A DNA stretch of 64,000 bases from Escherichia phage JLBYU40 (NC_105514.1), one strand, 5' to 3'. Positions 410 through 30,496 are shown, numbered from the stretch's first letter. The notes: generated from the sequence alone by a model not told the origin. Made by a program: numbers and translations.

Positions 410-430
410 TTTGCTTTCCTTCTCTTCACT

Positions 431-459: not shown

Positions 460-620
460 CAGAATAGCAAATGAATTTTTAATAAATTTACTTATTGTGT
501 AGGCCACCTGGAGGCTACCAACCCCACGGCTGACAAAGAAGTTTGCGAGACCTCTCTTAAATGCCAGAATAGACCCGCCGGTCTATCGGAACCTACATAA
601 TAAGTAAACTTTATAGTGTC

Positions 621-740: not shown

Positions 741-862
741 GTTTGATTGTTTTCAGTGCAAGAGTCCGAGTCTTGGACACGACCGCTTCGCAAGTACATA
801 GGCGGCTTATCATGAGTCAGCACTTCCGAATTGCTAGCTTCGTGTTCTGCACTGAAATTTTG

Positions 863-1210: not shown

Positions 1211-1236
1211 AGCGTATTTCTCGTGCTAGTTTAGTT

Positions 1237-1313
1237 TGGCGCGACCGATGGGATTCGAACCCACATTCTCTCCCGTGACAGGGGAGTACCATTACCAAGC
1301 CAGCCCCGGTCGC
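1237..1313 (-). tRNA. tRNA-Asp (GUC)
   Basis: Acceptor GCGACCG/CGGTCGC, anticodon arm CTCCC-CTGTCAC-GGGAG, T-arm GTGGG-TTCGAAT-CCCAT, CCA encoded. Confidence 0.7.
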
Positions 1314-1322
1314 ATAATTCAT

Positions 1323-1508
1323 TTACTCAGCTTTGAGTTTTTCAATAGCTGCATTAAGTTCCTTAAGAAACTCTTTTCGTACATTAAGACGATTAAGACT
1401 TACTAGTATATCATGTTTAAGTTCTTCGATGTATTTCTTCTCAACTTCAATATTGTTGATAGTGCTATCACGATGAACTTCTAGCTGTGCAATTACGTTC
1501 TTGGACAT
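1323..1508 (-). CDS. hypothetical protein (61 aa)
   Basis: ORF track; helical, charged sequence. Confidence 0.4.
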   Translation of the reverse strand: MSKNVIAQLEVHRDSTINNIEVEKKYIEELKHDILVSLNRLNVRKEFLKELNAAIEKLKAE

Positions 1509-1610
1509 GCTTGTTTCCTCAGTTATTAATGAAAATGGTATCTGTGGCTGAATTCGATGTCAGCAATGATAGCTGGTTGGCTACCGGTTTACTTAACTCT
1601 ACACAGAATT

Positions 1611-1688
1611 TGGCGGTTCCTGCTGGATTCGAACCAGCAACCCTCAACTTAACAAGATGCCGCTCTAACCAATTAGAGCTAAGGAACC
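1611..1688 (-). tRNA. tRNA-Asn (GUU)
   Basis: Acceptor GGTTCCT/AGGAACC, D-stem GCTC/GAGC, anticodon loop TTGTTAA, T-arm GCTGG-TTCGAAT-CCAGC, CCA encoded; anticodon stem has two mismatches. Confidence 0.55.
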
Positions 1689-2183
1689 ATATAAGTCAGA
1701 ACTAGAGTTAATACGTTCTAGATATTTACTAAGATCTCTAGAATTTATACTAAACCACTCATGTTCTTTTAAATCTTTGAAATACTGGTGAATTAGTTTT
1801 TCACCTTTTCGTTTGTCAAACCAAAAAGACCAATGCTCTAACTTATAATCCCTATAAGGGGAATAAGTCTGATATTGAGCTAATCTCTCTTTTGGATTTT
1901 GACTCATACCTATTTTATACTGATTTTTCCATGCAGGATTACTAATACAGTATACAAAACCTTCAGAAATAGGAAGTTTATTTTCCTGCTTAAACTTTAT
2001 AAAGGAAAGTGCAGCAAGTTTTCTCGAATACATAGTATTTGTATTCTTTTTGGTATTACCATTGGTTCCTGAAAGATTTATATATTCTTCCATAAATCTT
2101 TGGATTAGTTCTGCGGTTATATAGAAGGGCTCATTAGTAACAATACCTTTCTTTACCAAACTATCAAAAACTCTTGTATGCAC
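1665..2183 (-). CDS. T5orf172-domain (GIY-YIG-like) protein
   Basis: 172-aa ORF; motif YKIGMSQNPKERLAQYQTYSPY resembles the T5orf172 / MUG113 domain; 3' end overlaps the tRNA-Asn gene. Confidence 0.5.
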   Translation of the reverse strand: MHTRVFDSLVKKGIVTNEPFYITAELIQRFMEEYINLSGTNGNTKKNTNTMYSRKLAALSFIKFKQENKLPISEGFVYCISNPAWKNQYKIGMSQNPKERLAQYQTYSPYRDYKLEHWSFWFDKRKGEKLIHQYFKDLKEHEWFSINSRDLSKYLERINSSSDLYGSLALIG

Positions 2184-2204
2184 TACTTCTTTCCTTTAGT
2201 AATT

Positions 2205-2280
2205 TGGACGACCGCATGAGATTTGAACTCACATAAAAAGGATTTGCAATCCTTCGCCTAAGCCATTCAGCCAACGGTCG
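2205..2280 (-). tRNA. tRNA-Cys (GCA)
   Basis: Acceptor CGACCGT/GCGGTCG, anticodon arm AAGGA-TTGCAAA-TCCTT, T-loop TTCAAAT, CCA encoded. Confidence 0.65.
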
Positions 2281-2328
2281 GTTTATCTTGTTCTGTCATG
2301 TTGCTTCTCCAGTTCAATTTATGTAATT

Positions 2329-2357
2329 ATTATACAGAACTTTTGGAAACTAAGCAA
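2329..2357 (-). promoter_or_regulatory. sigma70-type promoter (-35 TTGCTT, 17 bp, -10 TATAAT)
   Basis: Plus-strand attata 2329-2334 and aagcaa 2352-2357; conserved cassette. Confidence 0.6.
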
Positions 2358-2627
2358 CTACATTTTTAAGAATTTGATGCCTTTCTTTTTCTTCTTATAT
2401 TTCCACGTTAATGGATTCTGCCGATTGTGAACGCTTGAGATCTTCGTCTCGTCAAAGTTCTTCAATATCATGTAATCACAAGATAATTGTTCTAATGGAA
2501 TGTGATCACCGTCAAAAGCATATACATAAGGCTGTTGACTAACACGATAATGATAGACTTTGTTAATTCTACGTTTTAGCGACTTATCAGCGCAGTAAAT
2601 AAAGAAGTTTTCAGGATGCATCAGCAT
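2358..2627 (-). CDS. hypothetical protein (89 aa)
   Basis: ORF track. Confidence 0.4.
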   Translation of the reverse strand: MLMHPENFFIYCADKSLKRRINKVYHYRVSQQPYVYAFDGDHIPLEQLSCDYMILKNFDETKISSVHNRQNPLTWKYKKKKKGIKFLKM

Positions 2628-2641
2628 CTCCTTCGATTTGG

Positions 2642-2713
2642 TGCACCCTGTTCGTATCGAACGAACCTCTCAAGCTCTTCAGGCAAGCGCTAATCCATCT
2701 CAGCTAAAGGTGC
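2642..2713 (-). tRNA. probable tRNA-Phe (GAA)
   Basis: Acceptor GCACCTT/AGGGTGC, D-stem GCTG/TAGC, anticodon loop CTGAAGA, T-arm GTTCG-TTCGATA-CGAAC; anticodon stem weak (two U.U). Confidence 0.4.
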
Positions 2714-2719
2714 AAATTT

Positions 2720-2796
2720 TGGCAAACCTACTAGGACTCGAACCTAGACCGTACGGTTTTGGAGACCGACATGCTGTCCAGTAACACTCTAGGAAT
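2720..2796 (-). tRNA. possible tRNA-Trp (CCA)
   Basis: T-arm CTAGG-TTCGAGT-CCTAG with encoded CCA, anticodon loop CTCCAAA; acceptor pairing imperfect, 5' boundary uncertain. Confidence 0.35.
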
Positions 2797-2804
2797 GCAG
2801 AAAT

Positions 2805-2881
2805 TGGCGTCCTGTGCGGGGATCGAACCCGCAAATCCTACCTTGAAAGGGTAGTGACTTTACCAGTTTGTCTAACAGGAC
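2805..2881 (-). tRNA. tRNA-Glu (UUC)
   Basis: Acceptor GTCCTGT/ACAGGAC, anticodon arm CTACC-CTTTCAA-GGTAG, T-arm GCGGG-TTCGATC-CCCGC, CCA encoded. Confidence 0.7.
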
Positions 2882-2888
2882 TTAAATT

Positions 2889-2979
2889 TGGTGTTGGATG
2901 ATGGAGTCGAACCACCCGAGACCCTTCCGAGTCGGCAGATTTACAGTCTGCTTCGCTACCTCTACGATACTAATCCAAC
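2889..2979 (-). tRNA. tRNA-Tyr (GUA), long variable arm
   Basis: Acceptor GTTGGAT/ATCCAAC, anticodon arm GCAGA-CTGTAAA-TCTGC, about 18-nt variable arm, T-loop TTCGACT, CCA encoded. Confidence 0.65.
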
Positions 2980-3042
2980 ATATTTAAAAGTATTCAAATA
3001 CTAGTTTAAACACTTTTAAATATGTTTCCGAATTAGATAACT

Positions 3043-3071
3043 ATTATATCAAGTTTTAAGGCACTGAGCAA
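3043..3071 (-). promoter_or_regulatory. sigma70-type promoter driving the tRNA operon (-35 TTGCTC, -10 TATAAT)
   Basis: Plus-strand attata 3043-3048 and gagcaa 3066-3071, 17-bp spacer. Confidence 0.5.
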
Positions 3072-3107
3072 GTCAAATTTTAAAGAACTTGCTCAGTGCT
3101 GTATTAG

Positions 3108-3383
3108 TTAGTCGAACTTAGGAGTGACAGTTAAGGAGAACGGAAGTTCGAAAACTTCTTCGCCCTCATTACTAACGGTAACTACACGACCTTTAAGTTC
3201 AGACATTAAAATATCAATATCAGCTTTTGCATCTGGAGCCATGCCAGCTTCAATACATTTAGCTTTAACTTCCGGTAAAAGCTCTACGTTATAGAGATAG
3301 AGCCACTCAATCTCACCTTCCCAGTCTTCCCAGGATTTGCAGATTGCACTTTCAATACCAGTTGCTACAACACGATTTTGCAT
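3108..3383 (-). CDS. hypothetical protein (91 aa)
   Basis: ORF track. Confidence 0.45.
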   Translation of the reverse strand: MQNRVVATGIESAICKSWEDWEGEIEWLYLYNVELLPEVKAKCIEAGMAPDAKADIDILMSELKGRVVTVSNEGEEVFELPFSLTVTPKFD

Positions 3384-3413
3384 TAATTAACTCCTTCATC
3401 AATTTATATAACT

Positions 3414-3443
3414 ATTATACCAGAAATTTAAAGTAAAAGGCAA
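3414..3443 (-). promoter_or_regulatory. sigma70-type promoter (-35 TTGCCT, -10 TATAAT)
   Basis: Plus-strand attata 3414-3419 and aggcaa 3438-3443, 18-bp spacer. Confidence 0.45.
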
Positions 3444-3473
3444 GTACATTTTTAAAAATTCTGTTTGGAGGAG

Positions 3474-3680
3474 CTAAACTCCAGATTTTTCGGCCAAGTC
3501 TAGACTAATAAGAGTTATAGCCATAATTGCTGCACCGTGTTCTTTTTCTCCGGTGTTTTTAGCAGAGTCTATAATATCCTTAATCTGTTCGTAATAACTT
3601 TTTACTTCTTGTTCAATGCCTGCCTCGGCTATCATGCCTTTAGCCATGAATCGTTGCATGGTAATTTCAGGATTAGCCAT
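3474..3680 (-). CDS. hypothetical protein (68 aa)
   Basis: ORF track; start overlaps stop of upstream small ORF (ATGGCTAA). Confidence 0.4.
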   Translation of the reverse strand: MANPEITMQRFMAKGMIAEAGIEQEVKSYYEQIKDIIDSAKNTGEKEHGAAIMAITLISLDLAEKSGV

Positions 3681-3840
3681 GTTGTTTCTCCAGTTTCATT
3701 TTTAATAGTTTACAGATGAAATCAACGTCTTCATCTGTGCCTAAGTCTCTATCCTCAAGGGTCGCCTTGAAGTTTTTCGTCAATTCCATGAGGATGACTT
3801 CCCTAGAACGACGTGTTGGCGGAGGTGGATGTCTATACAT
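3673..3840 (-). CDS. hypothetical small protein (about 55 aa)
   Basis: Hand-read ORF (MYRHPPPPTRRS...) with SD AAGGAAA upstream of ATG at 3840; stop overlaps next start. Confidence 0.35.
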   Translation of the reverse strand: MYRHPPPPTRRSREVILMELTKNFKATLEDRDLGTDEDVDFICKLLKMKLEKQHG

Positions 3841-3855
3841 CTTATTTCCTTAATT

Positions 3856-3932
3856 TGGTAGGGGTGGTGGGATTCGAACCCACAAAACCTGAATTTTAAG
3901 TCCAGTACCTATGCCAATTCGATTACACCCCC
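3856..3932 (-). tRNA. tRNA with UAA anticodon but short variable arm (identity uncertain)
   Basis: Acceptor GGGGGTG/CACCCCT, anticodon arm CTGGA-CTTAAAA-TTCAG, T-arm GTGGG-TTCGAAT-CCCAC, CCA encoded; D-arm poorly paired. Confidence 0.45.
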
Positions 3933-3939
3933 GTGTAAT

Positions 3940-4128
3940 TTAGTCAATTACTTTTGAAGCTTCAAGGTAGTCGATATAGTGTACGTTTTCTACCGTAATC
4001 ATATAATCTGCCACTTTATCCATAGCTTGGGCTTCAGAGGTAGCTCTGGCTAACCTATATCCTTTTTTATATTCATCAGAGTATTCTCTATCTTGAATAA
4101 ACACAACATAAACTACGTATAATTCCAC
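3940..4128 (-). CDS. hypothetical protein (about 62 aa; GTG start inferred)
   Basis: The 111-aa ORF in the track runs into tRNA genes; AGGGGG then GTG at about 4128 gives a tRNA-free CDS. Confidence 0.3.
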   Translation of the reverse strand: MELYVVYVVFIQDREYSDEYKKGYRLARATSEAQAMDKVADYMITVENVHYIDYLEASKVID

Positions 4129-4150
4129 TTGTAACCCCCTAATTAAGTTG

Positions 4151-4225
4151 GTGGCTCCCCGAGGATTCGAACCTACGTACCTTCCGGTTATGAGCCGGGT
4201 GCTCATACCATATGAGCTTGAGAAC
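4151..4225 (-). tRNA. tRNA with CAU anticodon (Met or Ile2)
   Basis: Acceptor GGTTCTC/GGGAGCC, D-stem GCTC/GAGC, anticodon arm CCCGG-CTCATAA-CCGGA, T-loop TTCGAAT; no encoded CCA. Confidence 0.5.
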
Positions 4226-4231
4226 CAAAAT

Positions 4232-4320
4232 CTGGCGGAAGAAGTGGGAATCGAACCCACAAGGCTATATTTCAAACCGACAGATTAGCAATCTGCTGCA
4301 ATACCGTTATGCTATTCTTC
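4232..4320 (-). tRNA. tRNA-Ser (GCU), long variable arm
   Basis: Acceptor GGAAGAA/TTCTTCC, anticodon arm GCAGA-TTGCTAA-TCTGT, long variable arm, T-arm GTGGG-TTCGATT-CCCAC, CCA encoded. Confidence 0.65.
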
Positions 4321-4342
4321 CGAATTTATAAGATATATTATA

Positions 4343-4864
4343 TTAGAAATTTAGCTTCATAGCAAGAAAATTTTTCAAGTTTTCGGTAGACATCTCATCT
4401 ACATCTACAGGAGAAACAAAGCCGTTTAATTTTCTAGCAAATTTTTCACCATCGGGATCATTGTCTCCAACAGCTACCAATTTAAAAGGTAGTAATTTCA
4501 GTTGCTTTAATAACGCTTTTCCTGGAGAAGAACCCAACATTGCTAGGGCTGGATAACCAGCGTTATGTAACGCAACTGCCTTAAATACAGATTCAGCAAT
4601 CAATACTACTTTTTCATCTCCATTGAGAGTTTCTAGTCCCCATACACACTGGGTAGTAGAATAAGTAAAGTATTTAGCTTCAAAGGGGCACTTACCATGA
4701 CCTTTTGGAGCAGAAGGATTATAAGTTTGATAGCCCCTCAACATCCCAGAGAAGTCATACAACGGGACTGTTAGCCATCCTTCTGGACTTAACCAGCAAT
4801 GATATTTATCTGTATCAAATCCCCTAGATAAGAGGTGCTGTGTTAGCTCATCAACATTCATATT
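4343..4864 (-). CDS. Toprim-like domain protein (hypothetical)
   Basis: Motifs IAESVFK and LVAVGDNDPDGEKFARKL resemble a Toprim acidic patch; start moved to MNVDEL. Confidence 0.4.
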   Translation of the reverse strand, partial: NMNVDELTQHLLSRGFDTDKYHCWLSPEGWLTVPLYDFSGMLRGYQTYNPSAPKGHGKCPFEAKYFTYSTTQCVWGLETLNGDEKVVLIAESVFKAVALHNAGYPALAMLGSSPGKALLKQLKLLPFKLVAVGDNDPDGEKFARKLNGFVSPVDVDEMSTENLKNFLAMKLNF

Positions 4865-4891
4865 TGGTTCCTCTCTCAAATTTATAGATAT

Positions 4892-4920
4892 ATTATACAG
4901 AGAATTTAGCATTCAAGCAA
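4892..4920 (-). promoter_or_regulatory. sigma70-type promoter (-35 TTGCTT, 17 bp, -10 TATAAT)
   Basis: Plus-strand attata 4892-4897, aagcaa 4915-4920. Confidence 0.6.
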
Positions 4921-5036
4921 TCAAATTTTTTAACTTTTTAGAGGAAAATCATAGGGCGCTTAAGGGTAACAGATAAGTGGTGAGGACCAAAATTTGTGAC
5001 CCCACTAAAAATCCGGGGGCAATTTTTAAAGACCCC

Positions 5037-5065
5037 TTGACATTTTCGCTGGGGTAGTGTAAAGT
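5037..5065 (+). promoter_or_regulatory. sigma70-type promoter (-35 TTGACA, about 17 bp, -10 TAAAGT)
   Basis: ttgaca at 5037-5042; TAAAGT/TATAT-like -10 about 17 bp downstream; followed by SD AGGAGG. Confidence 0.5.
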
Positions 5066-5127
5066 ATATGTTATGGATGAGTGATCAAAGAGACACACAT
5101 TTTCTATATACTAGGAGGTGTCAAAAA

Positions 5128-6114
5128 ATGACAGAAGAAGTAGCTAAGAGTCCTGAGACCGTCGCTAGCGTTGCAGCAGAACTGCACCGTCACGAGGAAT
5201 CAGATAAGAAAAAGTGGGAGAAGGTCAGAGCCTACGAAGAAAAACATCGTGAACACGATGATGAAGAAGATGACGATGATGAACATTGTCATAAATATGG
5301 AAAACATAAAATGCAAGAACCAGTAAACGTATTCACTAGTGGCTTCCCTGGCCTACTGGGTGGTTACCCAGCAAACGCAGGTGCTTTCGGTGGTGAAGGT
5401 ATGGGACTATTCGGAGCTATCCTAATCGGTGCTCTATTAACAGGTGGATTCGGTGGTTTCGGTGGATTCGGTGGACGTGGTGTAGTTGGTGAAGGTACCG
5501 CAGTTGATGCAGTACTTCAGAACCAAGATACCGCTAGTATTCTAGCAGCTATTAACACTACTCGTACAGAAGCTAATCAGGGTACTGGGGCTGTGTTAAG
5601 CGCAGTTAACAATGGTTTTAGCCAGACATCCCAAAACCAGAGCCGTGATACTCAGTCTGTACTAACTACGATTTATGGTACAGGTGCTAATCTGTCTAAT
5701 CAGATCTGCCAGGAAACTCGCAACGTTATTCAGGGTCAGTTCGATCTTTCTCGCCAGATTGATCAATCTTTCGCAGCTAACCAGATAGCTCGTGCACAAG
5801 ATAAATTTGATTCTGCACAGATCGCTTTCCAGCAGACTTTACAAACTAATAACCAGTTTGCCGCTGTTCAGGCTCAGATGTGTGCTAACCAGAACTCTCT
5901 GGAACGTCAGATCGCTGAATGTTGCTGTGAACTTCAGACTGCGATCGCTGGTGTAACTACTGCGCGTATCCAGGATGAGTTAGATGCATGTCGCCTACGT
6001 GAGGCAATCGCTGCGGGTAATGGTGCTAACGATCAGGTAATTAATCAAATCGCTGTAAGTCTTGGTGCAATCACTCAGACTCTGGCTGGTCTGCAGGCTA
6101 AACTGCCGGCTTAA
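5128..6114 (+). CDS. hypothetical protein: acidic/His-rich N-terminus, Gly-zipper hydrophobic segment, long Gln/Asn/Ala-rich helical region
   Basis: ATG 5128 after AGGAGG; GFGGFGGFGG and GAILIGALLTGG; codons biased to highly expressed E. coli-like usage. Confidence 0.6.
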   Translation: MTEEVAKSPETVASVAAELHRHEESDKKKWEKVRAYEEKHREHDDEEDDDDEHCHKYGKHKMQEPVNVFTSGFPGLLGGYPANAGAFGGEGMGLFGAILIGALLTGGFGGFGGFGGRGVVGEGTAVDAVLQNQDTASILAAINTTRTEANQGTGAVLSAVNNGFSQTSQNQSRDTQSVLTTIYGTGANLSNQICQETRNVIQGQFDLSRQIDQSFAANQIARAQDKFDSAQIAFQQTLQTNNQFAAVQAQMCANQNSLERQIAECCCELQTAIAGVTTARIQDELDACRLREAIAAGNGANDQVINQIAVSLGAITQTLAGLQAKLPA

Positions 6115-6135
6115 TATTAAGGGGAGGAGCCCATT

Positions 6136-6552
6136 ATGAGTAAATATGGTTTTGTAAATAACGGACTTAATCAAAGTATGGGCTCCCAGCAGCCCATTCC
6201 GGGTCTGGATAACCCCTACTTACAACAATTGCAACAGCGTTTAGCAGAAGCGCAACAGATGCAGCAACAACTCCAGCAAAACCCTGGAAGTGTGAGTCCT
6301 ATGCAAATGATGCAGCAAATGAGCGGGCAGTCGCAAATGCCTCAACAAATGCAGCAACAGGTGCCTCAGCAGCAAGTTCAGCAACAAACCCAACAACCGC
6401 AGGTTTCTGCGGAAGGACAGGCAGTACTAGCCCTTTTCGAAGACTTCGCAAAGACAGAGGATGGGAAACAGCTTGTATCACTTATGGGTAAGTTTAATAG
6501 CTTCTGCCAAAGCCAGGTTGCAAAAGCTCAAAATAGTGGTAATAACTCCTAA
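6136..6552 (+). CDS. hypothetical Gln-rich protein (138 aa)
   Basis: ORF with SD GGGGAGGAG upstream; about 35% Gln in the central region. Confidence 0.5.
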   Translation: MSKYGFVNNGLNQSMGSQQPIPGLDNPYLQQLQQRLAEAQQMQQQLQQNPGSVSPMQMMQQMSGQSQMPQQMQQQVPQQQVQQQTQQPQVSAEGQAVLALFEDFAKTEDGKQLVSLMGKFNSFCQSQVAKAQNSGNNS

Positions 6553-6561
6553 GGAGGAATT

Positions 6562-6756
6562 ATGTGTTGCAGAAAATCTGTTTCGTGCTGCCCAATGCCT
6601 GTAGCACGTTGTTGCTCTCCAGCAATGTTTACGCAAATACCGGCGTTCAATCCGTTTGCCTTTAAGCCTACTCTTATCCTGCCCCCTAGAGTAGATTTTC
6701 AGTCAAGATTGGCCTCCCGTATGGGTAGTTGCTGTAACAAGAGTATATGGTTCTAA
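6562..6756 (+). CDS. hypothetical Cys-rich small protein (64 aa, four CC doublets)
   Basis: Strong SD AAGGAGGA 5 nt before ATG; 8 Cys arranged as CC pairs. Confidence 0.4.
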   Translation: MCCRKSVSCCPMPVARCCSPAMFTQIPAFNPFAFKPTLILPPRVDFQSRLASRMGSCCNKSIWF

Positions 6757-6772
6757 GGAACCAAACAATAAA

Positions 6773-6806
6773 GCCCCTAGTCGAAAGACTTAGGGGCTTT
6801 TCTTTT
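6773..6806 (+). terminator. rho-independent terminator
   Basis: GCCCCTA/TAGGGGC stem followed by TTTTCTTTT. Confidence 0.6.
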
Positions 6807-6816
6807 ATCTTAAATA

Positions 6817-6851
6817 CAGAAAAGCCCTGCGCTCTCTAGGAAACGCAGGGC
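6817..6851 (-). terminator. rho-independent terminator for the convergent minus-strand gene
   Basis: GCCCTGCG/CGCAGGGC 8-bp stem; U-tract on minus strand (plus-strand agaaaa). Confidence 0.55.
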
Positions 6852-6876
6852 TTATTTCAGATGTTACATGCGGGTA

Positions 6877-7824
6877 TTATTTATTACGCATATCCATAAT
6901 CATTTGGCCATCATAGCCAGTGCCAACCACAGTCTGCGGTACACCACCTTGGTATTTCTGAGCACGAATCATTTCAACTTCCAGTTGCTTCCAGCGAATC
7001 ATCTCAGGAGTAATGGTACGTTGCAATGCGGCGTTAGCTTCAGCTTCTTTCTTAGCTGCATATAGTTTAGCATCTGCGTCACGTTCATTGGCAATAGCTT
7101 GGTTGTTGCGAGCTTCACGGTCTGCTTCTGCTTGTTTAACTTTTTGCTGTGCTTCCTGTTCAACGCGAGCCAGTTCAGCTTTCGCAGCATTAACTTGCTC
7201 TTCACGAACTTTGGTATTCTGTACCTGTTCCATGATTACCGGTGGCAAAGTAATATCCTGAAGGAATACCTGCTTAACTGTATAACCATATGGGCGTGCA
7301 TACTCTTCAACTTCCTGTTGAATTGCAGTTTGCAATTGAGCCTGAATTTTAGCATCAAACAAATCTTGTGCTTTAGGTACAGACTTACCAAACTCACGAA
7401 TAGTAGACAGTAATTTTTCAGTTACATACTTGTCTAGTGCCTGATCCTGAGTACCTGCGTTAATACGGTTAATTGGTGCCTTAGAACCATCAAACTGCAA
7501 CATAACAGTCAGGTCAACAGTGGATTTAAACTTATCCTGGCTAGGAACCTGAAGTTTATCTAATTTTACAGCAATATCTTTTGTACTAAAAGTGTCGAAA
7601 GATGCAAATGGGTTTACAAGATGGAAACCTGGTAATACTGGGTTAGGATCTACTTTACCCAGAAATGTTTGGGTTTTAACCGTACCATCAGAAACAATAG
7701 TATATGAATTAAAAGCTAGGATTAAACCTGCTAAACCAACTACAGCACCAATACCCCAACGTTTAATAGTACGAATTACTTTCTGCTCAGAAGTCAGTTC
7801 TTTCATATTTTTAGTATTAAACAT
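6877..7824 (-). CDS. SPFH / band-7 (prohibitin/HflK-like) membrane protein
   Basis: N-terminal TM helix (GIGAVVGLAGLILAF), then SPFH-like core and Ala/Glu/Gln-rich coiled coil. Confidence 0.6.
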   Translation of the reverse strand: MFNTKNMKELTSEQKVIRTIKRWGIGAVVGLAGLILAFNSYTIVSDGTVKTQTFLGKVDPNPVLPGFHLVNPFASFDTFSTKDIAVKLDKLQVPSQDKFKSTVDLTVMLQFDGSKAPINRINAGTQDQALDKYVTEKLLSTIREFGKSVPKAQDLFDAKIQAQLQTAIQQEVEEYARPYGYTVKQVFLQDITLPPVIMEQVQNTKVREEQVNAAKAELARVEQEAQQKVKQAEADREARNNQAIANERDADAKLYAAKKEAEANAALQRTITPEMIRWKQLEVEMIRAQKYQGGVPQTVVGTGYDGQMIMDMRNK

Positions 7825-7858
7825 ATATTTCCTTTGTTTTAGTTACAGTTAATAAAAT

Positions 7859-7933
7859 TGGCCGAGGTGACAGGATTCGAACCTGCATAAAGGAATTTAG
7901 AAGACTCCTGCCTCTCCCTTAGACTACACCCCG
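7859..7933 (-). tRNA. tRNA-Arg (UCU)
   Basis: Acceptor CGGGGTG/CACCTCG, anticodon arm GGAGT-CTTCTAA-ATTCC, T-arm GCAGG-TTCGAAT-CCTGT, CCA encoded. Confidence 0.65.
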
Positions 7934-8433
7934 TTTAAGTATTTTTAAGAACTCTCGTAAAAACTCTTAAAAATACAGACGATACCGGGAGAGTCATAGG
8001 TCTCACTCATTAAGTATTTCAAGACAAAATACAGTAACGTCTATTATTTTCCAGTTTAAGTCAGGGTGACTTAGTGGTTATGTCCTGCGGTATATTGAGG
8101 ACTCGGTTAGGCTTGGGGTCATGACTTCCCGCCTTTTGCTGCTACTCAACAGGAGTTATCGCGAATTACCTGTGCTATTGTGCACCATTAGTGACATCTC
8201 TCATGCCAGCATTTCCCACTTTGTGGATAGCTTGAAAAACTACTCCGATATGGAGAAAGAACTTCACTATCCTAGAATACCTTCTAAAGTTCTTCTTTAG
8301 CCTGGACATAGTTAAATCGTAATAAAACTATTCAGCAGACCGGTTGGTTAGTCTGGAACCAACTACCGCGTGGTTTAGGCAGTGCGCAACTAACCTCGGA
8401 AGCTTTTACGTTAAAAGCATCAGTTATCCAGTT

Positions 8434-8508
8434 CTTACCGACCGTAGGATTCGAACCTACATCTTCCACCAGTTACGGCTTGATAATACCAATTATACTA
8501 GGACGGCA
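8434..8508 (-). ncRNA. unresolved tRNA-like element
   Basis: T-arm GTAGG-TTCGAAT-CCTAC and partial acceptor pairing, but no canonical anticodon arm found. Confidence 0.25.
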
Positions 8509-26077: not shown

Positions 26078-26216
26078 TTTTTATTAGCTGAAATTTGTAA
26101 TCCGGGCTATTAGTGCTCGGATTATTACATAATCTTTCCAGTCGATTGACAGTCAAAATAAATTGTCGTTGACAATTTGGATGGATTATGTAATAATATA
26201 TGTATTGGAGGTGAGG

Positions 26217-26669
26217 ATGTCATTCACACAGCAAGAACTTTTAGATAACTTCCGATATGAAGATGGTAAGTTATTTAGAACTACAGGAAGAAATGCAGGG
26301 AAAGAATGTTGTGTTTCTACGGGTAACGGATATTATCGTATATCTCTAGGGAATAGGACTATGCTTCGGCATAGAGCAATATTTTTAATGCATCATGGAT
26401 ACTTACCTGATTTAGTAGATCATGTGAATACTATAAAAGGTGATGATCGTATTGAAAATCTTAGAGAGCAGACAGTGTCCGGTAATCTAAGAAATATCAA
26501 ATATAAGAAAGGAATGCATGTTTACCCTTCTGGTAGTAAGAACTGGCAAGTAGTATTTACTATTAACCGTAAACGTATAGTTAAAGGAACATATGACAAC
26601 TATGAGGTTGCATGTTCTATGGCCAAGATGTTTAGAGGTCAATTATACGGTAGGGAATCAATCCAGTAA
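26217..26669 (+). CDS. HNH homing endonuclease (HNH plus AP2-like DNA-binding region)
   Basis: Start MSFTQQELL after SD GGAGGTGAGG; HNH region HRAIFLMHHGYLPDLVDHVN..NLR. Confidence 0.55.
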   Translation: MSFTQQELLDNFRYEDGKLFRTTGRNAGKECCVSTGNGYYRISLGNRTMLRHRAIFLMHHGYLPDLVDHVNTIKGDDRIENLREQTVSGNLRNIKYKKGMHVYPSGSKNWQVVFTINRKRIVKGTYDNYEVACSMAKMFRGQLYGRESIQ

Positions 26670-27204
26670 AATTTCATTTGCAAGGGAGTATTATTTTATA
26701 GTATAATATTCCCATAAATGAGAGACATTAGTAAAAATTGATTTTGCTAATTTTTCTTGTTTACAATCCGCGATACGGAACAGTTAGGCTGCCCCATTAA
26801 GGGTTGTTTTAACTGTTACGTGTTAGTTTTTAAACAAATAGTTAATAGAATACTTAGCGATCTGCGTCCCATAGGAACCCTGGTAAGGCCTCGAAGCAAC
26901 CTAGTATGAGGTGGTTGTGAAGTGAGATGGGAGGAGTGAAAAACTCCGAGACGTGATTCTGTAAGTTATATTGCATCTAGTATGAGCTAGTATATGAAGC
27001 ATTAGGTGAGCAAATCTGGCTTAGCGGCCATCCTCAAGGATTTGTGCGGTATAACAAAGCAGCAGCGCAGCGTGAAAGTGGAAGTTGCCACCCCACTTCA
27101 GTATTTGCGATTAATTTGTTGAGAAATTGACAGTAACAGTTGTTCTATTCTTTCTGAATAGTCCTAAAGAAAACTTATTTCATTTCCAACACAGGAGTAT
27201 TGTT

Positions 27205-29991
27205 GTGTTTTCAATCCTACAAGGTCATGCAGGATTTCATCGCGATTTAGCCACAGGCAATTGGCGAGAAGTTAAAGCAGAAGACTATCTTTTTGCTAAA
27301 AGATTTTCCTCAAAGCATCCTGAAGGTAAACCAGCTTCAATGCCCTTCAAGTTTGATGTAATTGATGAAGTTGATCCTCAAACCCTAGTAGAAATGCTTC
27401 CTCTTATGAGACGTTTAACGTCTGACCCTCATATCGTTGCGGTACGAGGTCGATGTCTTGCACCTAAAAATAATGTGCGACGTAAGAAGGGCAACTTTAA
27501 TGTATCTAACCCAAGTCATATAATTGCAATGGACGTGGATGGTATTGTAGATACAGGTGGTTGTAACAAGTTTGATCTTGTTGGCATGGCCCGACATATT
27601 ATTAGGATGTTAAATAGTATTAGTGAGGATATGTTTCCTCTTGATGCAGGGTTTATCGCTCATGCATCATCTTCGGCTGGGCTAAAACCAGGTATCCGAA
27701 TGCACTTAATACTAGAATCTAATGTTAAAGTAACTCAGGGTCAAATCAAGTTCTTATTTACATCTATCAATGAAAGTAGTAGACAAAAGTATGGCTTTGA
27801 TATTGCCGACTTAGCTTATTACTCTTCCGTACAGCTCCATTATTTTGCAGATCCGTTATTTACAGATGGTATAGTAGATCCGTTTAAAGCGGAGGGTGCT
27901 TCACGTCTGGTATTTGTTAAGGGTTCTAAAGTAAATTTACCCAATAATCTGGTTGACTATGAAACAACTAGAGGCGAGTTTAAAGAGGAGTTTTACTCTT
28001 TACTCGATCAAATTAAAGGTAAAAAAGCCGCCTCCGATAAAGTAGAGGAAACTATCAGCGAACTAGAAGAAGCTGAGGATGGAGTGTATCTACGTATTAT
28101 TCCTAAACTCTATCACAGGGCTTTAGAGGATGGTGTTGATTTTGCATGGCTAGAAAAAGAAATCCGTCCAGCCTTATCAGAGTATATTGCAACTAAAGAT
28201 AATAGTCGTAATATTCAAGACTACTTTAACAACGGTCGTAAGCAGGCTCTGAAAGCGTTTGTTAATAATTCTAAACGTGATATACCGGATGTTTTAAAAG
28301 GTATTCCACTTAAAAAGCTAGAAACTAACTCTCTAGAGACTGATAACTTCTTGAAATTAAATACTGTACCACCAGAAGGTTATATGACTTTTGTAAAAGC
28401 AAGTCTAGGTACAGGTAAAACTACGGCGGTTGTGCGTTGGCTGGATTCAGGAGTTATTAAGGGTAATTTCTTAGCAATTACCAATACTAGGGCACTAGTG
28501 TCTTCAAATGCTAAGAAATTTAGTGCAGGACAATATGATAAGTCTGTAGATATGCTTAATTTTAAGCGCGGTGCTATTGACCGTATGTCCACAACTATTC
28601 ACTCTTTACATAAGTTCAAGAGTTTTATTGGTCAAATTGATGCAATCTTTATCGATGAATGTGATGCTGTAATGAATGACCTATTATTCGCCCCGGTTGT
28701 TAAGCAACGTCGCGAGTGTATTCAGGTTCTTCGGGATATTCTTGCAACTGCAAAAATCATTATATTATCTGATGGTGATATTAGTGCTGAAACAATTGAA
28801 GCATATGGTTCTTTGATTGAGTTTGATAAACCGGTTGCATTTTATAATCATCACCGTAAGATGCTGTCAAAAGCTCATGCTTATGAGTTCCCTGATGAAT
28901 CTAGTATTTGGGTTGCACTTCAGACTTCTCTAGAGATGGGTGAGAAATCTATTCTGGTATCTGACTGTGGGCCGGATGAGCTGAATGAGAAGGGCATGGC
29001 ATTGCGTCATAATACGGGTGCATTAGTTAAGGAAATCCACTCAAACTCTACGTCTGATGTAGATATTAGACGTATCCTGGATTACACAACTAATGAGTTA
29101 ATTGACCAACAAATTGATTGCTTATTATGTAGTCCATCCGTAACGAGTGGTGTTGACTTCAACTATTTTGATAACGTATTCGTTATTACTAGAACCAGTA
29201 ATCAGGCGCCAAACATGCGTTTCCAAGCAATCAGGCGCGACCGTGGTGCTCAGAACATCTATTATTTTATTGATAAATCCACTAGTGGATTCTCCGCAGG
29301 TTCCGAACAATATAATATTGATGAAGGTTGGCTGGAGTTAGCACAGCAATTATACGCACGTCGCAGAGAGCTAGAATCTAGGAACTATACTAGTACTTTA
29401 CGTTATTACTTGCTTGATCAGGGTGCAACTATTGATATTTTCAGCGAAAGCTGGGGAACTATTGAAGGTGCTGGTAAAGAGTACACAGAAGAGCGAATTA
29501 AAGCTATTCTACATTCAACTCCGGATTATTGTGCTCCACGTCATGCGGATGCGTATGAAGCTAAACTACTTCTTGTTCGCTATTATCATCTCGAGTCTAT
29601 TAAAGATGTAACAGTTGAGCATGTTGAACAATATATCAAAGATAAACCAAATGATCGAGCTGCATTCTTCCATAAGATGCATGAGATGTTCTGGGAAGAT
29701 ATTAAGAAGTGTTCAAATGTGACCATTAAACCATTCATAGAAGCTCTGAAAGGTAAGAAGAAGGATTTCTTCCTTAAAACAGGTCAGAGTGCTAACCCAA
29801 AATATGCTAGAATGTATCTTGGTATGATGGGTATTGGTAAGGATATGAACACTGAAAATATTGTAGACTGGTACAGAACCTATTGTAAAATCGAGTGTAT
29901 GCCAATTCCTTTCAAATTCATGACAGAGGAAGAGAAGGCTATGGCAGAAGAAGTAATGTCCGAACTTGGAGCAACCAATGAAGATGCATAA
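27205..29991 (+). CDS. large P-loop ATPase / helicase-like protein (putative replication initiator or origin-binding)
   Basis: GTG start after SD AGGAG; Walker A SLGTGKTT, Walker B IFIDECDAV, SGVDF-like motif; about 928 aa. Confidence 0.55.
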   Translation: MFSILQGHAGFHRDLATGNWREVKAEDYLFAKRFSSKHPEGKPASMPFKFDVIDEVDPQTLVEMLPLMRRLTSDPHIVAVRGRCLAPKNNVRRKKGNFNVSNPSHIIAMDVDGIVDTGGCNKFDLVGMARHIIRMLNSISEDMFPLDAGFIAHASSSAGLKPGIRMHLILESNVKVTQGQIKFLFTSINESSRQKYGFDIADLAYYSSVQLHYFADPLFTDGIVDPFKAEGASRLVFVKGSKVNLPNNLVDYETTRGEFKEEFYSLLDQIKGKKAASDKVEETISELEEAEDGVYLRIIPKLYHRALEDGVDFAWLEKEIRPALSEYIATKDNSRNIQDYFNNGRKQALKAFVNNSKRDIPDVLKGIPLKKLETNSLETDNFLKLNTVPPEGYMTFVKASLGTGKTTAVVRWLDSGVIKGNFLAITNTRALVSSNAKKFSAGQYDKSVDMLNFKRGAIDRMSTTIHSLHKFKSFIGQIDAIFIDECDAVMNDLLFAPVVKQRRECIQVLRDILATAKIIILSDGDISAETIEAYGSLIEFDKPVAFYNHHRKMLSKAHAYEFPDESSIWVALQTSLEMGEKSILVSDCGPDELNEKGMALRHNTGALVKEIHSNSTSDVDIRRILDYTTNELIDQQIDCLLCSPSVTSGVDFNYFDNVFVITRTSNQAPNMRFQAIRRDRGAQNIYYFIDKSTSGFSAGSEQYNIDEGWLELAQQLYARRRELESRNYTSTLRYYLLDQGATIDIFSESWGTIEGAGKEYTEERIKAILHSTPDYCAPRHADAYEAKLLLVRYYHLESIKDVTVEHVEQYIKDKPNDRAAFFHKMHEMFWEDIKKCSNVTIKPFIEALKGKKKDFFLKTGQSANPKYARMYLGMMGIGKDMNTENIVDWYRTYCKIECMPIPFKFMTEEEKAMAEEVMSELGATNEDA

Positions 29992-30496
29992 ACCAATGCC
30001 TCCTATGGCATTTATCCTAGAAAAGCTTAGGTATGACGAAAGTACTGGGGACTTAATTTGGTTATCTGGCCCAAGGAAGGGAAAGATAGCGGGCTCCAAA
30101 ATGAAAACTGGGAGACAGTTAGAGTTTATGATAAATGGAGAGCATACAGCTTACTTAGCCCATAGAATAATCTGGTTTATAAAGACAGGCGAAGATCCTG
30201 GAGATAAAACTATCGACCACAAAGACGGTGATAGTTTAAACAACTTGTGGGATAATTTACGTAAGGCTACCTATTCCGAAAATGGAAAGAATAAGAAGTG
30301 TTCTACTAATTCTACCGGATTCACTGGAGTTGTAAAACGAGGTAATAGGTATATGGCCTACGCTTACTGCAATGGAAAACAGCATATTTTTGGTAGACGA
30401 GATACCCCGGAAGAAGCCCATCAGCTATACCTTAGGGGAGTTAAAGAACTGTTTGGTGAATTTAATCCCTCGGAGAGATATGACAGTGAAGAATAA
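29966..30496 (+). CDS. HNH-AP2 homing endonuclease
   Basis: DHKDGDSLNNLWDNLR (HNH) followed by GFTGVVKRGNRYMAYAYCNGKQHIFGRRDTPEEA (AP2-like). Confidence 0.6.
   Translation: MEQPMKMHKPMPPMAFILEKLRYDESTGDLIWLSGPRKGKIAGSKMKTGRQLEFMINGEHTAYLAHRIIWFIKTGEDPGDKTIDHKDGDSLNNLWDNLRKATYSENGKNKKCSTNSTGFTGVVKRGNRYMAYAYCNGKQHIFGRRDTPEEAHQLYLRGVKELFGEFNPSERYDSEE

What the first reader, a model, noticed from the sequence alone, without database searches (positions are those of the whole stretch)
26670..29991. 530-bp non-coding leader followed by a large P-loop ATPase flanked by two HNH homing endonuclease genes
The region 26670-27204 has no ORF but is rich in short inverted repeats; it precedes a roughly 928-aa protein with Walker A (GTGKT) and Walker B (DECD) motifs and a large unassigned N-terminal domain, bracketed by HNH genes at 26217-26669 and 29966-30496. 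This could be a replication origin plus initiator/helicase, or a mobile cassette delivered by the homing endonucleases.
Basis: partly seen in the sequence, partly recalled or inferred. Interest (0 to 1): 0.5.

Follow-up and report, generated by a model that had tools for sequence, protein, structure and literature searches.

The report
Structured leader RNA before T5 primase-helicase
The "empty" 535 bp in front of the phage T5-type replication gene encodes a large, intricately folded RNA that matches no catalogued RNA family and is conserved across T5-like phages, while the gene behind it is a primase fused to a herpesvirus-like origin helicase and the two flanking HNH genes are independent selfish insertions.

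Summary
The window comes from a T5-like phage (Tequintavirus; 96.6% identical to phage MM-1). 26670-27204 has no conserved ORF. 27205-29991 is the T5.108 homologue, annotated as "replication origin binding protein". HNH genes sit on both sides.

- **Protein.** Residues 1-250 form an archaeo-eukaryotic primase (AEP) fold with invariant DxD, H and D motifs. The remainder is an SF2 helicase whose closest solved structure is the HSV-1 UL9 origin-binding protein.
- **HNH genes.** Each is present in only about 4-5 of 34 related genomes, independently of the other. They did not deliver the locus; both the gene and the leader are core to the family.
- **Leader.** It starts at a standard T5 early promoter. 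Its length is conserved (464-489 nt), even though the central 300 nt has diverged beyond blastn detection between two types. Across 11 lineages, 49 of 69 predicted pairs show compensatory changes (shuffled 27.7±2.9), and G·U cells outnumber A·C cells 128 to 12. It has no Rfam match, and I found no paper describing it.

Its function is unproven. I rank a cis-acting leader of the primase-helicase mRNA first (about 0.4), then a processed trans-acting RNA, then an origin transcript.

The parts
26098..26716 (+). Segment that replaces the short T5-type intergenic region. It is the upstream HNH cassette: its own promoter (26169-26197), the HNH ORF (26217-26669), and a substitute promoter for the leader RNA.
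   Evidence: In an alignment with HNH-less relatives L004 and T5, homology is lost after the T5.107-homologue stop region. It partly resumes at the -35 element and is complete from GAGAG at 26720. Promoter scan. Pfam HNH_3. The cassette is present in only 5 of 34 genomes.
26678..26708 (+). Sigma-70 early promoter of the leader RNA: TTGCAA, 18 nt, TATAAT(A). The inferred transcription start is near 26714.
   Evidence: Promoter scan. It is one of 23 matches to the T5 early-promoter pattern TTGC-N16-20-TATAATA in the window, against 0.5 expected. An equivalent promoter is conserved at the same place in relatives and is annotated in T5 NC_005859.
26720..27204 (+). Structured leader RNA of about 485-490 nt, a family not in Rfam, running without a terminator into the start codon of the primase-helicase gene.
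   Evidence: Length from GAGAG to the start codon is conserved at 464-489 nt. Covariation. The pairing is specific to the + strand. There is no conserved ORF, no Rfam match and no terminator.
26720..26758 (+). P1, the 5'-terminal hairpin (GAGAGACAUUAGUA / UGCUAAUUUUUCUU).
   Evidence: Helix 1 of A8: 13 pairs, 6 with compensatory changes. Coordinates.
26772..26798 (+). P2, a nearly invariant hairpin with internal loops (GAUACGGAACAGUUAGGCUGCCCCAU).
   Evidence: Helix 2: 98% of cells paired, and 5 of 9 pairs compensated in the Klebsiella, Eos, KEY and L208 lineages. The motif occurs once per T5-like genome in IMG/VR.
26811..27141 (+). P3, a long-range helix (AACUGUUAC at 26811-26819 with GUAACAGUU at 27133-27141) that closes a core of about 330 nt containing helices P4-P10.
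   Evidence: A perfect 9-bp inverted repeat (I20). It is replaced by GAUUAUUAUAC/GUAUAAUAAUU in DU_PP_V and by GGUUAUUAUAUAAC/GUUAUAUAAUAACC in My1. 5 of 6 pairs are compensated. T5-type phages show a G-C to A-U change.
27008..27051 (+). P9 hairpin with an invariant apex GGC-UUAGC-GGCC and a freely covarying outer helix (GCAAAUC / GAUUUGU).
   Evidence: Covariance model R1 scores 48.3 bits, E 1e-14, and this is its only hit in the 64-kb window. There is one hit per related genome, including Providencia and Proteus phages. Pair counts. Outer-helix sequences in 16 lineages.
27077..27097 (+). P10 hairpin (AGUGG / CCACU) with a loop containing GUUGCCACC.
   Evidence: Helix 10. It is AUAUGA/UCAUAU in T5 and UAAGGG/CCCUUA in My1.
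27145..27161 (+). Small hairpin CUAUUC-UUUCU-GAAUAG between the closed core and the ribosome-binding site.
   Evidence: It covaries: CUAUC/GAUAG in Klebsiella phage and CUUUCC/GGAAAG in DU_PP_V.
27205..27954 (+). AEP (archaeo-eukaryotic primase / PrimPol) domain, residues 1-250 of the 928-aa protein.
28372..29991 (+). UL9-like SF2 helicase plus a C-terminal helical domain, residues 390-928. Walker A is at 28408-28422 and Walker B at 28654-28665.
   Evidence: Pfam Herpes_ori_bp at 29.2 bits against a cut-off of 20, covering residues 394-533 only. PDB profile hits to UL9 at E 1e-6. Foldseek top hits 9hgj/9hgi at E 2e-15, followed by generic SF2 helicases.
29978..30496 (+). Downstream free-standing HNH homing endonuclease, the homologue of T5 hegI (T5.109). 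It overlaps the 3' end of the primase-helicase gene.
   Evidence: Pfam HNH_3. Annotations. It is present in 4 of 34 genomes. Where it is present, the last 100 residues of the neighbouring gene are 96-99% identical; where absent, about 91%.

Best explanation
**What it is (shown).** This is the replication-initiation locus of a T5-like phage.
- A standard early sigma-70 promoter (26678-26708) drives a transcript whose first ~490 nt (26714/26720-27204) fold into a conserved multi-helix RNA.
- That RNA has a 5'-terminal hairpin P1, an almost invariant hairpin P2, and a long-range helix P3 that closes a core of about 330 nt. The core holds at least seven further helices, including the signature hairpin GGC-UUAGC-GGCC.
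- No terminator follows. In this phage the RNA is therefore necessarily the 5' leader of the mRNA for the 928-aa protein.
- That protein is an AEP primase-polymerase domain fused to a UL9-like SF2 helicase.
- The two HNH genes are independent free-standing homing endonucleases that have inserted at the edges of this conserved block.

**How it most likely works (inferred).** The folded leader acts in cis on its own mRNA. It sets the amount or timing of primase-helicase production, through translation initiation, transcript stability or read-through. It probably does so by binding a factor, with the protein itself as the obvious candidate.

**How likely.**
- A real, + strand, structure-selected RNA: about 0.85-0.9.
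- Co-transcription with the gene in this phage: about 0.8.
- A cis-regulatory role: about 0.4.
For: **Identity of the locus**
- Megablast gives 96.6% identity to Tequintavirus MM-1/BB1. The gene is the T5.108 homologue.

**Promoter**
-, and the T5 annotation.
- The promoter is conserved in more than 10 lineages.

**Non-coding status**
- No ORF is conserved.

**Length and architecture**
- Length is kept at 485-489 nt in Markadamsvirinae, 477 in Sugarlandvirus and DU_PP_V, 487 in Eos and 464 in My1.
- This holds although the central ~300 nt of the window type and the T5 type no longer align by blastn.
- Both types fold into the same architecture.

**Covariation**

| Alignment | Sequences | Cells paired (shuffled) | Pairs with compensatory change (shuffled) | Slid controls |
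|---|---|---|---|---|
| A3 | 9 | 93.7% (77.6) | 36 of 59 (19.8±2.2, 0/500) | 8-13 |
| A8 | 11 lineages | 88.7% (73.0) | 49 of 69 (27.7±2.9, 0/500) | 16-27 |

**Strand**
- 128 G·U cells against 12 A·C cells.
- The + strand has the lower folding energy: z -4.0 against -2.0.

**P9 hairpin**
- Covariance model R1 finds exactly one site per genome, including in Providencia and Proteus phages.

**Read-through into the gene**
- No terminator lies between the RNA and the gene.
- The core lies a similar ~60 nt from the start codon in the enterobacterial lineages.
- In three distant lineages (L205, Aeromonas TS3, Vibrio 70E37-4) a terminator-like hairpin followed by a U-tract sits between the upstream region and the gene. 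This is an attenuator-like layout.

**Protein**
- AEP motifs are invariant.
- UL9 is the best structural match.

**HNH genes**
- They are polymorphic and independent of each other.
Against: **Against a cis-regulatory role**
- No expression platform was found. There is no conserved helix that sequesters the ribosome-binding site; pairing of the 5' linker with that region was predicted only among near-identical sequences.
- There is no terminator in the enterobacterial lineages.
- In Proteus RP7-like phages a strong TTGACA-17-TATAAT promoter lies between the structured region and the gene, only 45 nt before the ATG. There the gene can be expressed without the RNA.
- A closed 330-nt core with ten helices is larger than nearly all known cis-regulators. 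It resembles stand-alone ornate RNAs.

**Limits of the structural evidence**
- The helices were predicted by RNAalifold on the same alignments used for counting, which inflates the counts.
- Only about 11-15 independent lineages exist.
- MFE z-scores are modest in several lineages, for example -1.2 in Klebsiella phage.
- The homologous RNA was not detected in Vibrio phages or in lineages L206/L207. These keep an upstream gap but lack the UUAGCGG hairpin.

**No expression data**
- No transcript data were available.
Confidence: 0.4

Rival explanations
1. **Stand-alone functional RNA.** The folded core is released or accumulates as a stable non-coding RNA. This would happen by processing of the 5' leader, or by termination in those lineages that have a terminator. 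The RNA would act in trans, for example as the RNA subunit or scaffold of a ribonucleoprotein, or as a decoy for a host RNA-binding or defence factor. Its position next to the primase-helicase gene would then simply reflect conserved gene order.
For: - Its size and complexity (ten helices, a closed core, invariant loops) resemble orphan large RNAs more than leaders.
- It has its own strong early promoter.
- Proteus RP7-like phages have a separate promoter for the gene downstream of the RNA.
- Terminator-like hairpins follow the upstream region in L205, Aeromonas TS3 and Vibrio 70E37-4.
- The 5'-terminal hairpin P1 is the kind of feature that stabilises RNAs.
Against: - There is no terminator and no recognisable processing site in the window or its close relatives.
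- No target complementarity was identified.
- The RNA always lies directly upstream of the gene and in the same orientation in all lineages examined.
- The distant lineages that have terminators were not shown to carry the homologous RNA. The only indication is a weak covariance-model hit in TS3, E 0.0017.
Confidence: 0.27
2. **Origin transcript.** The promoter and structured RNA form a transcription-activated replication origin. The folded transcript makes a persistent RNA-DNA hybrid, or is bound by the primase-helicase. This opens the duplex next to the initiator gene, so that the UL9-like helicase loads and the AEP domain primes. The precedents are ColE1 RNA II and the T4 and T7 origin transcripts.
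For: - The element sits directly beside the only UL9-like, origin-binding-type gene of the phage.
- The T5 equivalent lies at 59.07-59.54 kb of 121.75 kb, the centre of the genome. From memory, classical electron microscopy placed the first T5 origin there.
- It has a strong early promoter.
- Conserved folding of a pre-primer of about 500 nt has a precedent in ColE1 RNA II (established knowledge).
Against: - There are no iterons or other direct repeats.
- There is no AT-rich unwinding element: GC is 0.35-0.39, like the rest of the genome.
- No promoter-like site lies on the minus strand within 26708-27204 that could give an antisense regulator.
- The GC-skew turning points of the window, near 21 kb and 49 kb, follow the direction of transcription, not this site.
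- The central sequence is replaceable as long as pairing is kept. This argues against sequence-specific DNA binding there.
- The origin has not been mapped at sequence resolution in any source I could read.
Confidence: 0.2
3. **DNA-level element only.** The inverted repeats act as DNA hairpins or cruciforms, or as single-stranded DNA initiation signals for the primase. The RNA fold would be incidental.
For: - Many inverted repeats are present.
- AEP-type primases such as RepB' use hairpins in single-stranded DNA (for the fold match; the mechanism is established knowledge).
- G·T wobble pairs can also form in single-stranded DNA of the + strand.
Against: - A double-stranded cruciform would need both strands to pair. 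With 128 G·U cells against 12 A·C cells, the minus strand would be only 73% paired.
- Nested long-range helices 250-330 nt apart, and a promoter conserved at a near-constant distance upstream, are typical of RNA.
Confidence: 0.06

Closest known systems
T5 gene T5.108, 'replication origin binding protein' (PHROG 3712); annotated 'DNA primase' in the BASEL phages
   Same: It is 93% identical over the full length. It has the same neighbours: Sir2-like genes upstream, then T5.110, D2 and D3 downstream. The PHROG match has E 0.
   Different: Nothing essential differs. The window phage additionally carries the upstream HNH cassette, which T5 lacks.
Herpesvirus UL9 origin-binding protein (Pfam PF02399; PDB 9hgj/9hgi)
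   Same: It has an SF2 helicase core with the same motif I-II region. UL9 is the best structural match for the C-terminal 550-600 residues, with Foldseek E 2e-15.
   Different: Identity is only 14%, and the Pfam match covers 140 of 820 profile positions. The phage protein carries an N-terminal AEP primase domain, which herpesviruses encode separately as UL52. Sequence-specific origin binding has not been shown.
AEP primase-helicase fusions: poxvirus D5/E5, pRN1 ORF904-type PrimPol with SF3 helicase, VapE/D5_N proteins
   Same: It has an N-terminal AEP fold with DxD, H and D motifs followed by a helicase.
Large orphan structured RNAs often found in phages (ROOL, GOLLD), and long structured leaders (T-box, cobalamin riboswitch)
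   Same: It is several hundred nucleotides long, has many covarying helices, is phage-encoded and has no known function.
   Different: It shows no sequence or structure match to any of the 4227 Rfam 15 families. It is confined to Demerecviridae, with one copy per genome, always directly upstream of the primase-helicase gene. No terminator or SD-sequestering platform was found in this phage.
ColE1 RNA II pre-primer and T4/T7 origin transcripts
   Same: It has a promoter followed by a folded transcript of about 500 nt, next to replication functions.
   Different: No antisense regulator promoter and no AT-rich unwinding element were found, and no origin is mapped here. Unlike RNA II, the transcript continues into a protein-coding gene.
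Free-standing HNH homing endonucleases of T5 (hegA-J; F-TflI etc.)
   Same: They have an HNH_3 domain and are intergenic or overlap gene ends. They show presence/absence polymorphism and a co-conversion signature in the neighbouring gene.
   Different: Their cleavage sites are unknown. The upstream cassette carries its own promoters and replaces the native promoter of the RNA.

Membership tests
AEP (archaeo-eukaryotic primase / PrimPol) superfamily | AEP catalytic fold (mixed beta-sheet core flanked by helices) | tested here: met
AEP (archaeo-eukaryotic primase / PrimPol) superfamily | Motif I DxD, motif II (S/G)xH, and the acidic residue of motif III | tested here: met
   D110, D112, S155, S157, H167 and D202 are invariant in 48 homologues down to 32% identity.
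AEP (archaeo-eukaryotic primase / PrimPol) superfamily | Primer synthesis activity | not testable with these tools
   This needs biochemistry.
Herpes_ori_bp (UL9-type origin-binding SF2 helicase, PF02399) | Profile match above the Pfam gathering score | tested here: met
   29.2 bits against a cut-off of 20, but only residues 394-533 match profile positions 51-197 of 820.
Herpes_ori_bp (UL9-type origin-binding SF2 helicase, PF02399) | UL9 is the closest structure over the helicase and C-terminal region | tested here: met
   Foldseek 9hgj_A E 2.2e-15 over 556 columns, ahead of BLM, Mss116 and Mfd at about 1e-9. TM-scores are low (0.34-0.38).
Herpes_ori_bp (UL9-type origin-binding SF2 helicase, PF02399) | Sequence-specific binding to a replication origin | not testable with these tools
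   No repeated candidate binding sites were found near the gene. The name 'origin binding' in annotations is inherited from the Pfam match.
Free-standing HNH homing endonuclease | HNH nuclease domain | tested here: met
   HNH_3 at 43.6 and 47.5 bits against a cut-off of 24.8. PHROG 99 at E 1e-41 and 3e-53.
Free-standing HNH homing endonuclease | Presence/absence polymorphism at a fixed site between otherwise collinear genomes | tested here: met
   The upstream gene is in 5 of 34 genomes and the downstream gene in 4 of 34, independently. Boundaries were mapped. There is a co-conversion signature in the last 100 residues of the neighbouring gene.
Any described RNA family (Rfam 15, including ROOL, GOLLD, T-box, riboswitches, RNase P, tmRNA, 6S) | Covariance-model match | tested here: not met
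   Nothing reached gathering score in the window except tRNAs. In the leader nothing scored below E 0.6. Nothing relevant was found in 8 related loci.
Riboswitch / attenuator-type cis-regulatory leader | Conserved structured sensor domain directly upstream of, and co-oriented with, the regulated gene | tested here: met
Riboswitch / attenuator-type cis-regulatory leader | Expression platform: an intrinsic terminator or a conserved helix that sequesters the ribosome-binding site | tested here: inconclusive
   No terminator is present in the window. SD pairing was predicted only where the sequences do not vary. Terminator-like hairpins are seen only in distant lineages whose homology is unproven.
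ColE1 RNA II-type / R-loop origin | Origin of DNA synthesis at the 3' part of the transcript; antisense or unwinding elements | tested here: not met
   No AT-rich element, no repeats and no minus-strand promoter inside the leader were found. Whether this is an origin is itself not testable here.
Iteron-type DNA origin | Arrays of direct repeats for initiator binding | tested here: not met
   Only two-copy matches of 9-25 nt at scattered spacings were found.

The most novel reading that the evidence does not exclude
The folded RNA may be a working partner of the primase-helicase encoded right behind it. It would be an origin-specifying or primer-providing RNA, or the RNA subunit of the initiation complex. 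Initiation of T5-family replication would then be RNA-guided rather than iteron-guided. The two sequence-divergent but iso-structural "alleles" (window type and T5 type) could then be specificity variants that co-evolve with the N-terminal domain of the protein.
Probability: 0.2. Interest if true: 0.85.

Novelty: new variant of a known kind. Interest (0 to 1): 0.62.

Why it matters
T5 is a classical model phage, yet its replication origin and initiation mechanism have never been defined at sequence level. The gene called "origin binding protein" owes its name only to a Pfam match.

This work shows two things:
- The protein is an AEP primase fused to a UL9-like helicase.
- The roughly 0.5 kb in front of it, left blank or filled with spurious small ORFs in hundreds of GenBank records, is a structure-selected RNA of about 490 nt.

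That gives a concrete, testable handle on how T5-like phages start replication or control it. These phages are widely used in therapy and in defence-system research. It also adds a large RNA family absent from Rfam.

The practical consequences are to stop annotating the small ORFs in the leader, and to treat the two HNH genes as optional selfish insertions.

Tried and rejected
**Sequence collections**
- A scan of metagenome contigs with the P2 motif gave 120 hits, of which 119 were chance matches. Only L148 was a true T5-like contig. The pattern, with 15 specified bases, was too short for that database.
- The IMG/VR scan returned only genomes already in hand.
- The first protein search with the N-terminal 400 aa found only two fragments. 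Searching with an alignment of distant homologues was needed.

**Alternative readings of the leader**
- Small ORFs as real genes: rejected.
- Iterons, or a UL9-box-like binding array: no repeats were found.
- A mutually exclusive P2/P3 pairing (ACGGAACAGUUA against UAACUGUUACGU, I8) as a riboswitch-like switch: rejected by eye, because the P3 5' strands of DU_PP_V and My1 are not complementary to P2.
- An anti-SD pairing: not conserved, by inspection of the alignments.
- The motif TTTTTGCACCC seen before the gene in distant lineages: absent from the window.

**Methods that fell short**
- MFE z-scores across lineages were only moderately informative, and one run timed out.
- A covariance model of the whole RNA could not be built, because the limit is 400 columns and calibration time is capped. 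Only the P9 hairpin was modelled.

**Literature**
- Literature searches found no description of this RNA and no sequence-level T5 origin.
- A 2023 catalogue of more than 10,000 candidate phage RNAs may contain fragments of it. It does not discuss it, and I could not check its lists.


Full report
**1. Where the window comes from**

The region 26100-30600 matches 448 phage records, and the best match is 96.6% identical over its full length (Escherichia phages MM-1, MM-2 and BB1, genus Tequintavirus). Gene order equals that of phage T5. Sir2-like genes and the T5.105-T5.107 homologues come first. A gap follows, then T5.108 ("replication origin binding"), hegI, T5.110, D2 and D3. The window also has a tRNA cluster. 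It holds 23 copies of the T5 early-promoter pattern TTGC-N16-20-TATAATA, against 0.5 expected.

**2. Checking the observation**

Every stated feature is present.

- The leader spans 26670-27204, 535 bp. It ends at a GTG start codon preceded by AGGAG, and this is the start used in annotated relatives.
- The protein is 928 aa with GTGKT and DECD motifs.
- Both flanking ORFs match Pfam HNH_3 above the cut-off.
- Short ORFs exist in the leader, and some pipelines annotate them. Their ends shift between close relatives, and they are absent in other lineages. They are not genes.

**3. The protein**

Pfam recognises only 140 residues, as Herpes_ori_bp. A profile of 11 homologues hits only HSV-1 UL9 among solved structures, again over helicase motifs I-II.

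*The N-terminal domain is an AEP primase.*

- Alignment of 48 homologues down to 32% identity shows invariant D110, D112, S155, S157, H167 and D202. This is the DxD / sxH / D pattern of archaeo-eukaryotic primases.
- An exhaustive HMMER search with residues 1-400 found only 81 proteins. Eight of the ten weakest-scoring matches I scanned carry PriCT_2, D5_N, VapE or DUF5906 domains downstream of the matched region, so they are AEP primase-helicases.

*The rest is a UL9-like helicase.* For the full-length model (pLDDT 87.2), Foldseek puts HSV-1 UL9 first at E 2e-15, well ahead of generic SF2 helicases at about 1e-9.

The protein is therefore an AEP primase-polymerase fused to a UL9-like SF2 helicase. 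T5-like phages also encode a separate putative primase next to a putative replicative helicase (gene table in PMC5519627). This protein need not be the lagging-strand primase, and an initiation-specific role is plausible. That last step is inference.

**4. The HNH genes**

Among 33 related loci plus the window, the upstream HNH is present in 5 and the downstream HNH in 4, in different combinations.

- The upstream cassette (about 26098-26716) brings its own promoter. It also replaces the native promoter of the leader with an equivalent one. Homology with HNH-less genomes resumes exactly at the first bases of the RNA.
- In one relative (L030) the cassette carries a duplicated copy of the promoter and of the first hairpin of the RNA.
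- Genomes with the downstream HNH share 96-99% identity over the last 100 residues of the primase-helicase. Genomes without it share about 91%. This is a co-conversion signature.

These are classic free-standing homing endonucleases sitting at the edges of a conserved block. They did not deliver the block.

**5. The leader is a structured RNA**

*(a) Transcription.* A promoter TTGCAA-18-TATAAT lies at 26678-26707. It belongs to the early-promoter class of the phage. T5 has a promoter annotated at the same place, and equivalent promoters occur in all lineages inspected. No terminator follows.

*(b) Length without sequence.* The distance from the conserved GAGAG to the start codon is 485-489 nt in E. 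coli and Salmonella phages, 477 nt in Klebsiella phages and DU_PP_V, 487 nt in Eos and 464 nt in My1. Yet the central ~300 nt (26825-27131) of the window type and the T5 type no longer match by blastn.

*(c) Same architecture.* Independent consensus folding of the two types gives the same layout:

- a 5' hairpin P1;
- a conserved hairpin P2;
- a long-range helix P3 enclosing everything up to 27141;
- a long helix P4;
- a helix P5 closing a multi-branch junction;
- the hairpins P9 and P10;
- a small hairpin before the ribosome-binding site.

*(d) Covariation.* The tool's own controls support the helices.

| Alignment | Sequences | Cells paired (shuffled) | Pairs with compensatory change (shuffled) | Slid controls |
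|---|---|---|---|---|
| A3 | 9 | 93.7% (77.6±1.2) | 36 of 59 (19.8±2.2, 0/500) | 8-13 |
| A8 | 11 lineages, including Erwinia phage KEY and two metagenomic lineages | 88.7% (73.0) | 49 of 69 (27.7±2.9, 0/500) | 16-27 |

Individual helices change completely between lineages. P3 is AACUGUUAC/GUAACAGUU here, GAUUAUUAUAC/GUAUAAUAAUU in DU_PP_V, and GGUUAUUAUAUAAC/GUUAUAUAAUAACC in My1. The outer helix of P9 is different and complementary in 16 lineages.

*(e) Strand.* G·U occupies 128 cells and A·C occupies 12. The + strand also folds better relative to shuffles: z -4.0 against -2.0.

*(f) Specificity.* A covariance model of P9 finds one site per genome, at 27008-27051 in this window (48.3 bits), and nothing else in 64 kb. 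It also finds the Providencia and Proteus phage sites, and a weak site in an Aeromonas phage.

*(g) Caveats.*

- The helices were predicted on the alignments on which they were counted.
- The number of independent lineages is small.
- The central region is hard to align.
- MFE z-scores are weak in some lineages.

Even so, the combination of complete helix replacement, length conservation and strand asymmetry is hard to explain without selection on an RNA fold.

**6. How far the RNA extends**

Every Demerecviridae lineage examined has 390-1300 nt without a credible gene upstream of the primase-helicase gene. The homologous RNA, judged by the UUAGCGG hairpin, is demonstrable in the following:

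- Markadamsvirinae;
- Sugarlandvirus and Eos;
- both Pectobacterium phages;
- Erwinia phage KEY;
- Providencia PR1-like phages;
- Proteus RP7-like phages;
- metagenomic relatives of these groups.

It is not detectable in Vibrio phages or in two lineages with shorter gaps, L206 and L207.

**7. What it does**

Nothing here measures function. Four readings were weighed.

*Cis-acting leader.* In this phage the RNA is by construction the 5' leader of the primase-helicase mRNA. Its core ends about 60 nt before the start codon. In some distant lineages a terminator-like hairpin sits between the upstream region and the gene. These points favour a cis-acting leader, which I rank first at about 0.4. Against it, there is no conserved platform that sequesters the ribosome-binding site. 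RP7-like phages also have a strong promoter between the RNA and the gene.

*Processed, trans-acting RNA.* The RP7 promoter, together with the size of the fold, supports this reading (about 0.27).

*Origin transcript.* This stays possible (about 0.2). The element lies beside the UL9-like gene, and the T5 equivalent lies at the centre of the genome, at 59.1-59.5 of 121.75 kb. From memory, classical electron microscopy placed the first origin there. However, there are no iterons, no AT-rich element and no antisense promoter. The central sequence is also freely replaceable as long as pairing is kept.

*Pure DNA element.* This is unlikely because of the strand asymmetry.

**8. Comparison with what is known**

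- The protein and the HNH genes are known and annotated, although "origin binding" is an inherited name. The AEP assignment agrees with the "DNA primase" label used for the BASEL phages.
- The RNA matches none of the 4227 Rfam 15 families.
- I found no paper that describes it. A catalogue of more than 10,000 candidate phage RNAs might include fragments.
- It works like, but is not a member of, the class of large orphan phage RNAs or long structured leaders.

**9. Verdict**

- The finding of value is the undescribed ~490-nt structured RNA in a model phage family.
- Interest is 0.62.

Noticed in passing
window 441-43036 (23 sites): There are 23 matches to the T5 early-promoter pattern TTGC-N16-20-TATAATA, against 0.5 expected by chance. 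All sites up to 20.8 kb are on the minus strand and all from 23.0 kb onward are on the plus strand. This marks a divergent early transcription switch near 21-23 kb, which also explains the GC-skew minimum there.
   Followed up: partly
L010 ~1955-2055, L024, L031 (equivalent to window ~26758): A 98-nt insertion sits immediately after hairpin P1 of the leader RNA. It is flanked by the direct repeat TTTTTCTT, is present in three relatives, and may be a small mobile or extra structural module. KKP_3822 has a T/C-rich insertion at the same spot, and GEC_vB_N3 has a 7-nt duplication nearby.
   Followed up: partly
L030 1844-2018: The upstream HNH cassette is followed by a copy of the promoter and of the first ~40 nt (P1) of the RNA. 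The native promoter and the complete RNA come after it. This is a duplication that marks the right-hand recombination boundary of the cassette.
   Followed up: partly
L205 1240-1270 and 1455-1480; L042 ~1200-1230; L040 ~1395-1425: The motif TTTTT(T)GCAC(C/T)C follows a hairpin just upstream of the primase-helicase gene in a Providencia-like lineage, in Aeromonas phage TS3 and in Vibrio phage 70E37-4. In the Providencia-like lineage it occurs twice, flanking an inserted 56-aa ORF. It is absent from the window. It could be a terminator with a conserved downstream signal.
   Followed up: partly
window 27046-27056 and equivalents in 10 lineages: A conserved motif, GUGCGAAG or GUGCGGUAU, lies directly 3' of the P9 hairpin. 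Its reverse complement, CTTCGCAC, resembles the core of the HSV UL9 box I site as I remember it. For a 7-mer this is most likely coincidence.
   Followed up: no
window 29688-29988: The last 100 residues of the primase-helicase are 96-99% identical among genomes that carry the downstream HNH, but about 91% identical to genomes that lack it. This is a likely co-conversion tract of homing.
   Followed up: partly
L010, L032, L033 at 5506-5805; DaisyDussoix L002 6995-7357: A third HNH insertion site lies between the T5.110 and D2 homologues in some relatives. This stretch is therefore a hotspot for homing endonucleases.
   Followed up: no
window 26671-26695 and 27177-27201: A 25-nt direct repeat at 76% identity links the promoter region brought by the HNH cassette to the region just upstream of the primase-helicase start codon (D1). 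Its meaning is unknown.
   Followed up: no
L041 (Vibrio phage PG07) ~830-1000: The non-coding region upstream of the homologous gene contains a direct repeat of about 57 nt (GACTATCACTTTGTAGCCTCAATCCTCGGATTGTGTGAGTCAGTTAACTTCTGTCG) in place of the enterobacterial-type RNA.
   Followed up: no
OQ990039.1 (phage SUT_E420) 59046-60422: The N-terminal 400 aa of the homologue match in two pieces that span 1377 nt instead of 1200 nt. This suggests an insertion inside the gene in that phage.
   Followed up: no
window 85-8507, minus strand: A cluster of 12-14 tRNA genes, as is typical of T5-like phages.
   Followed up: no
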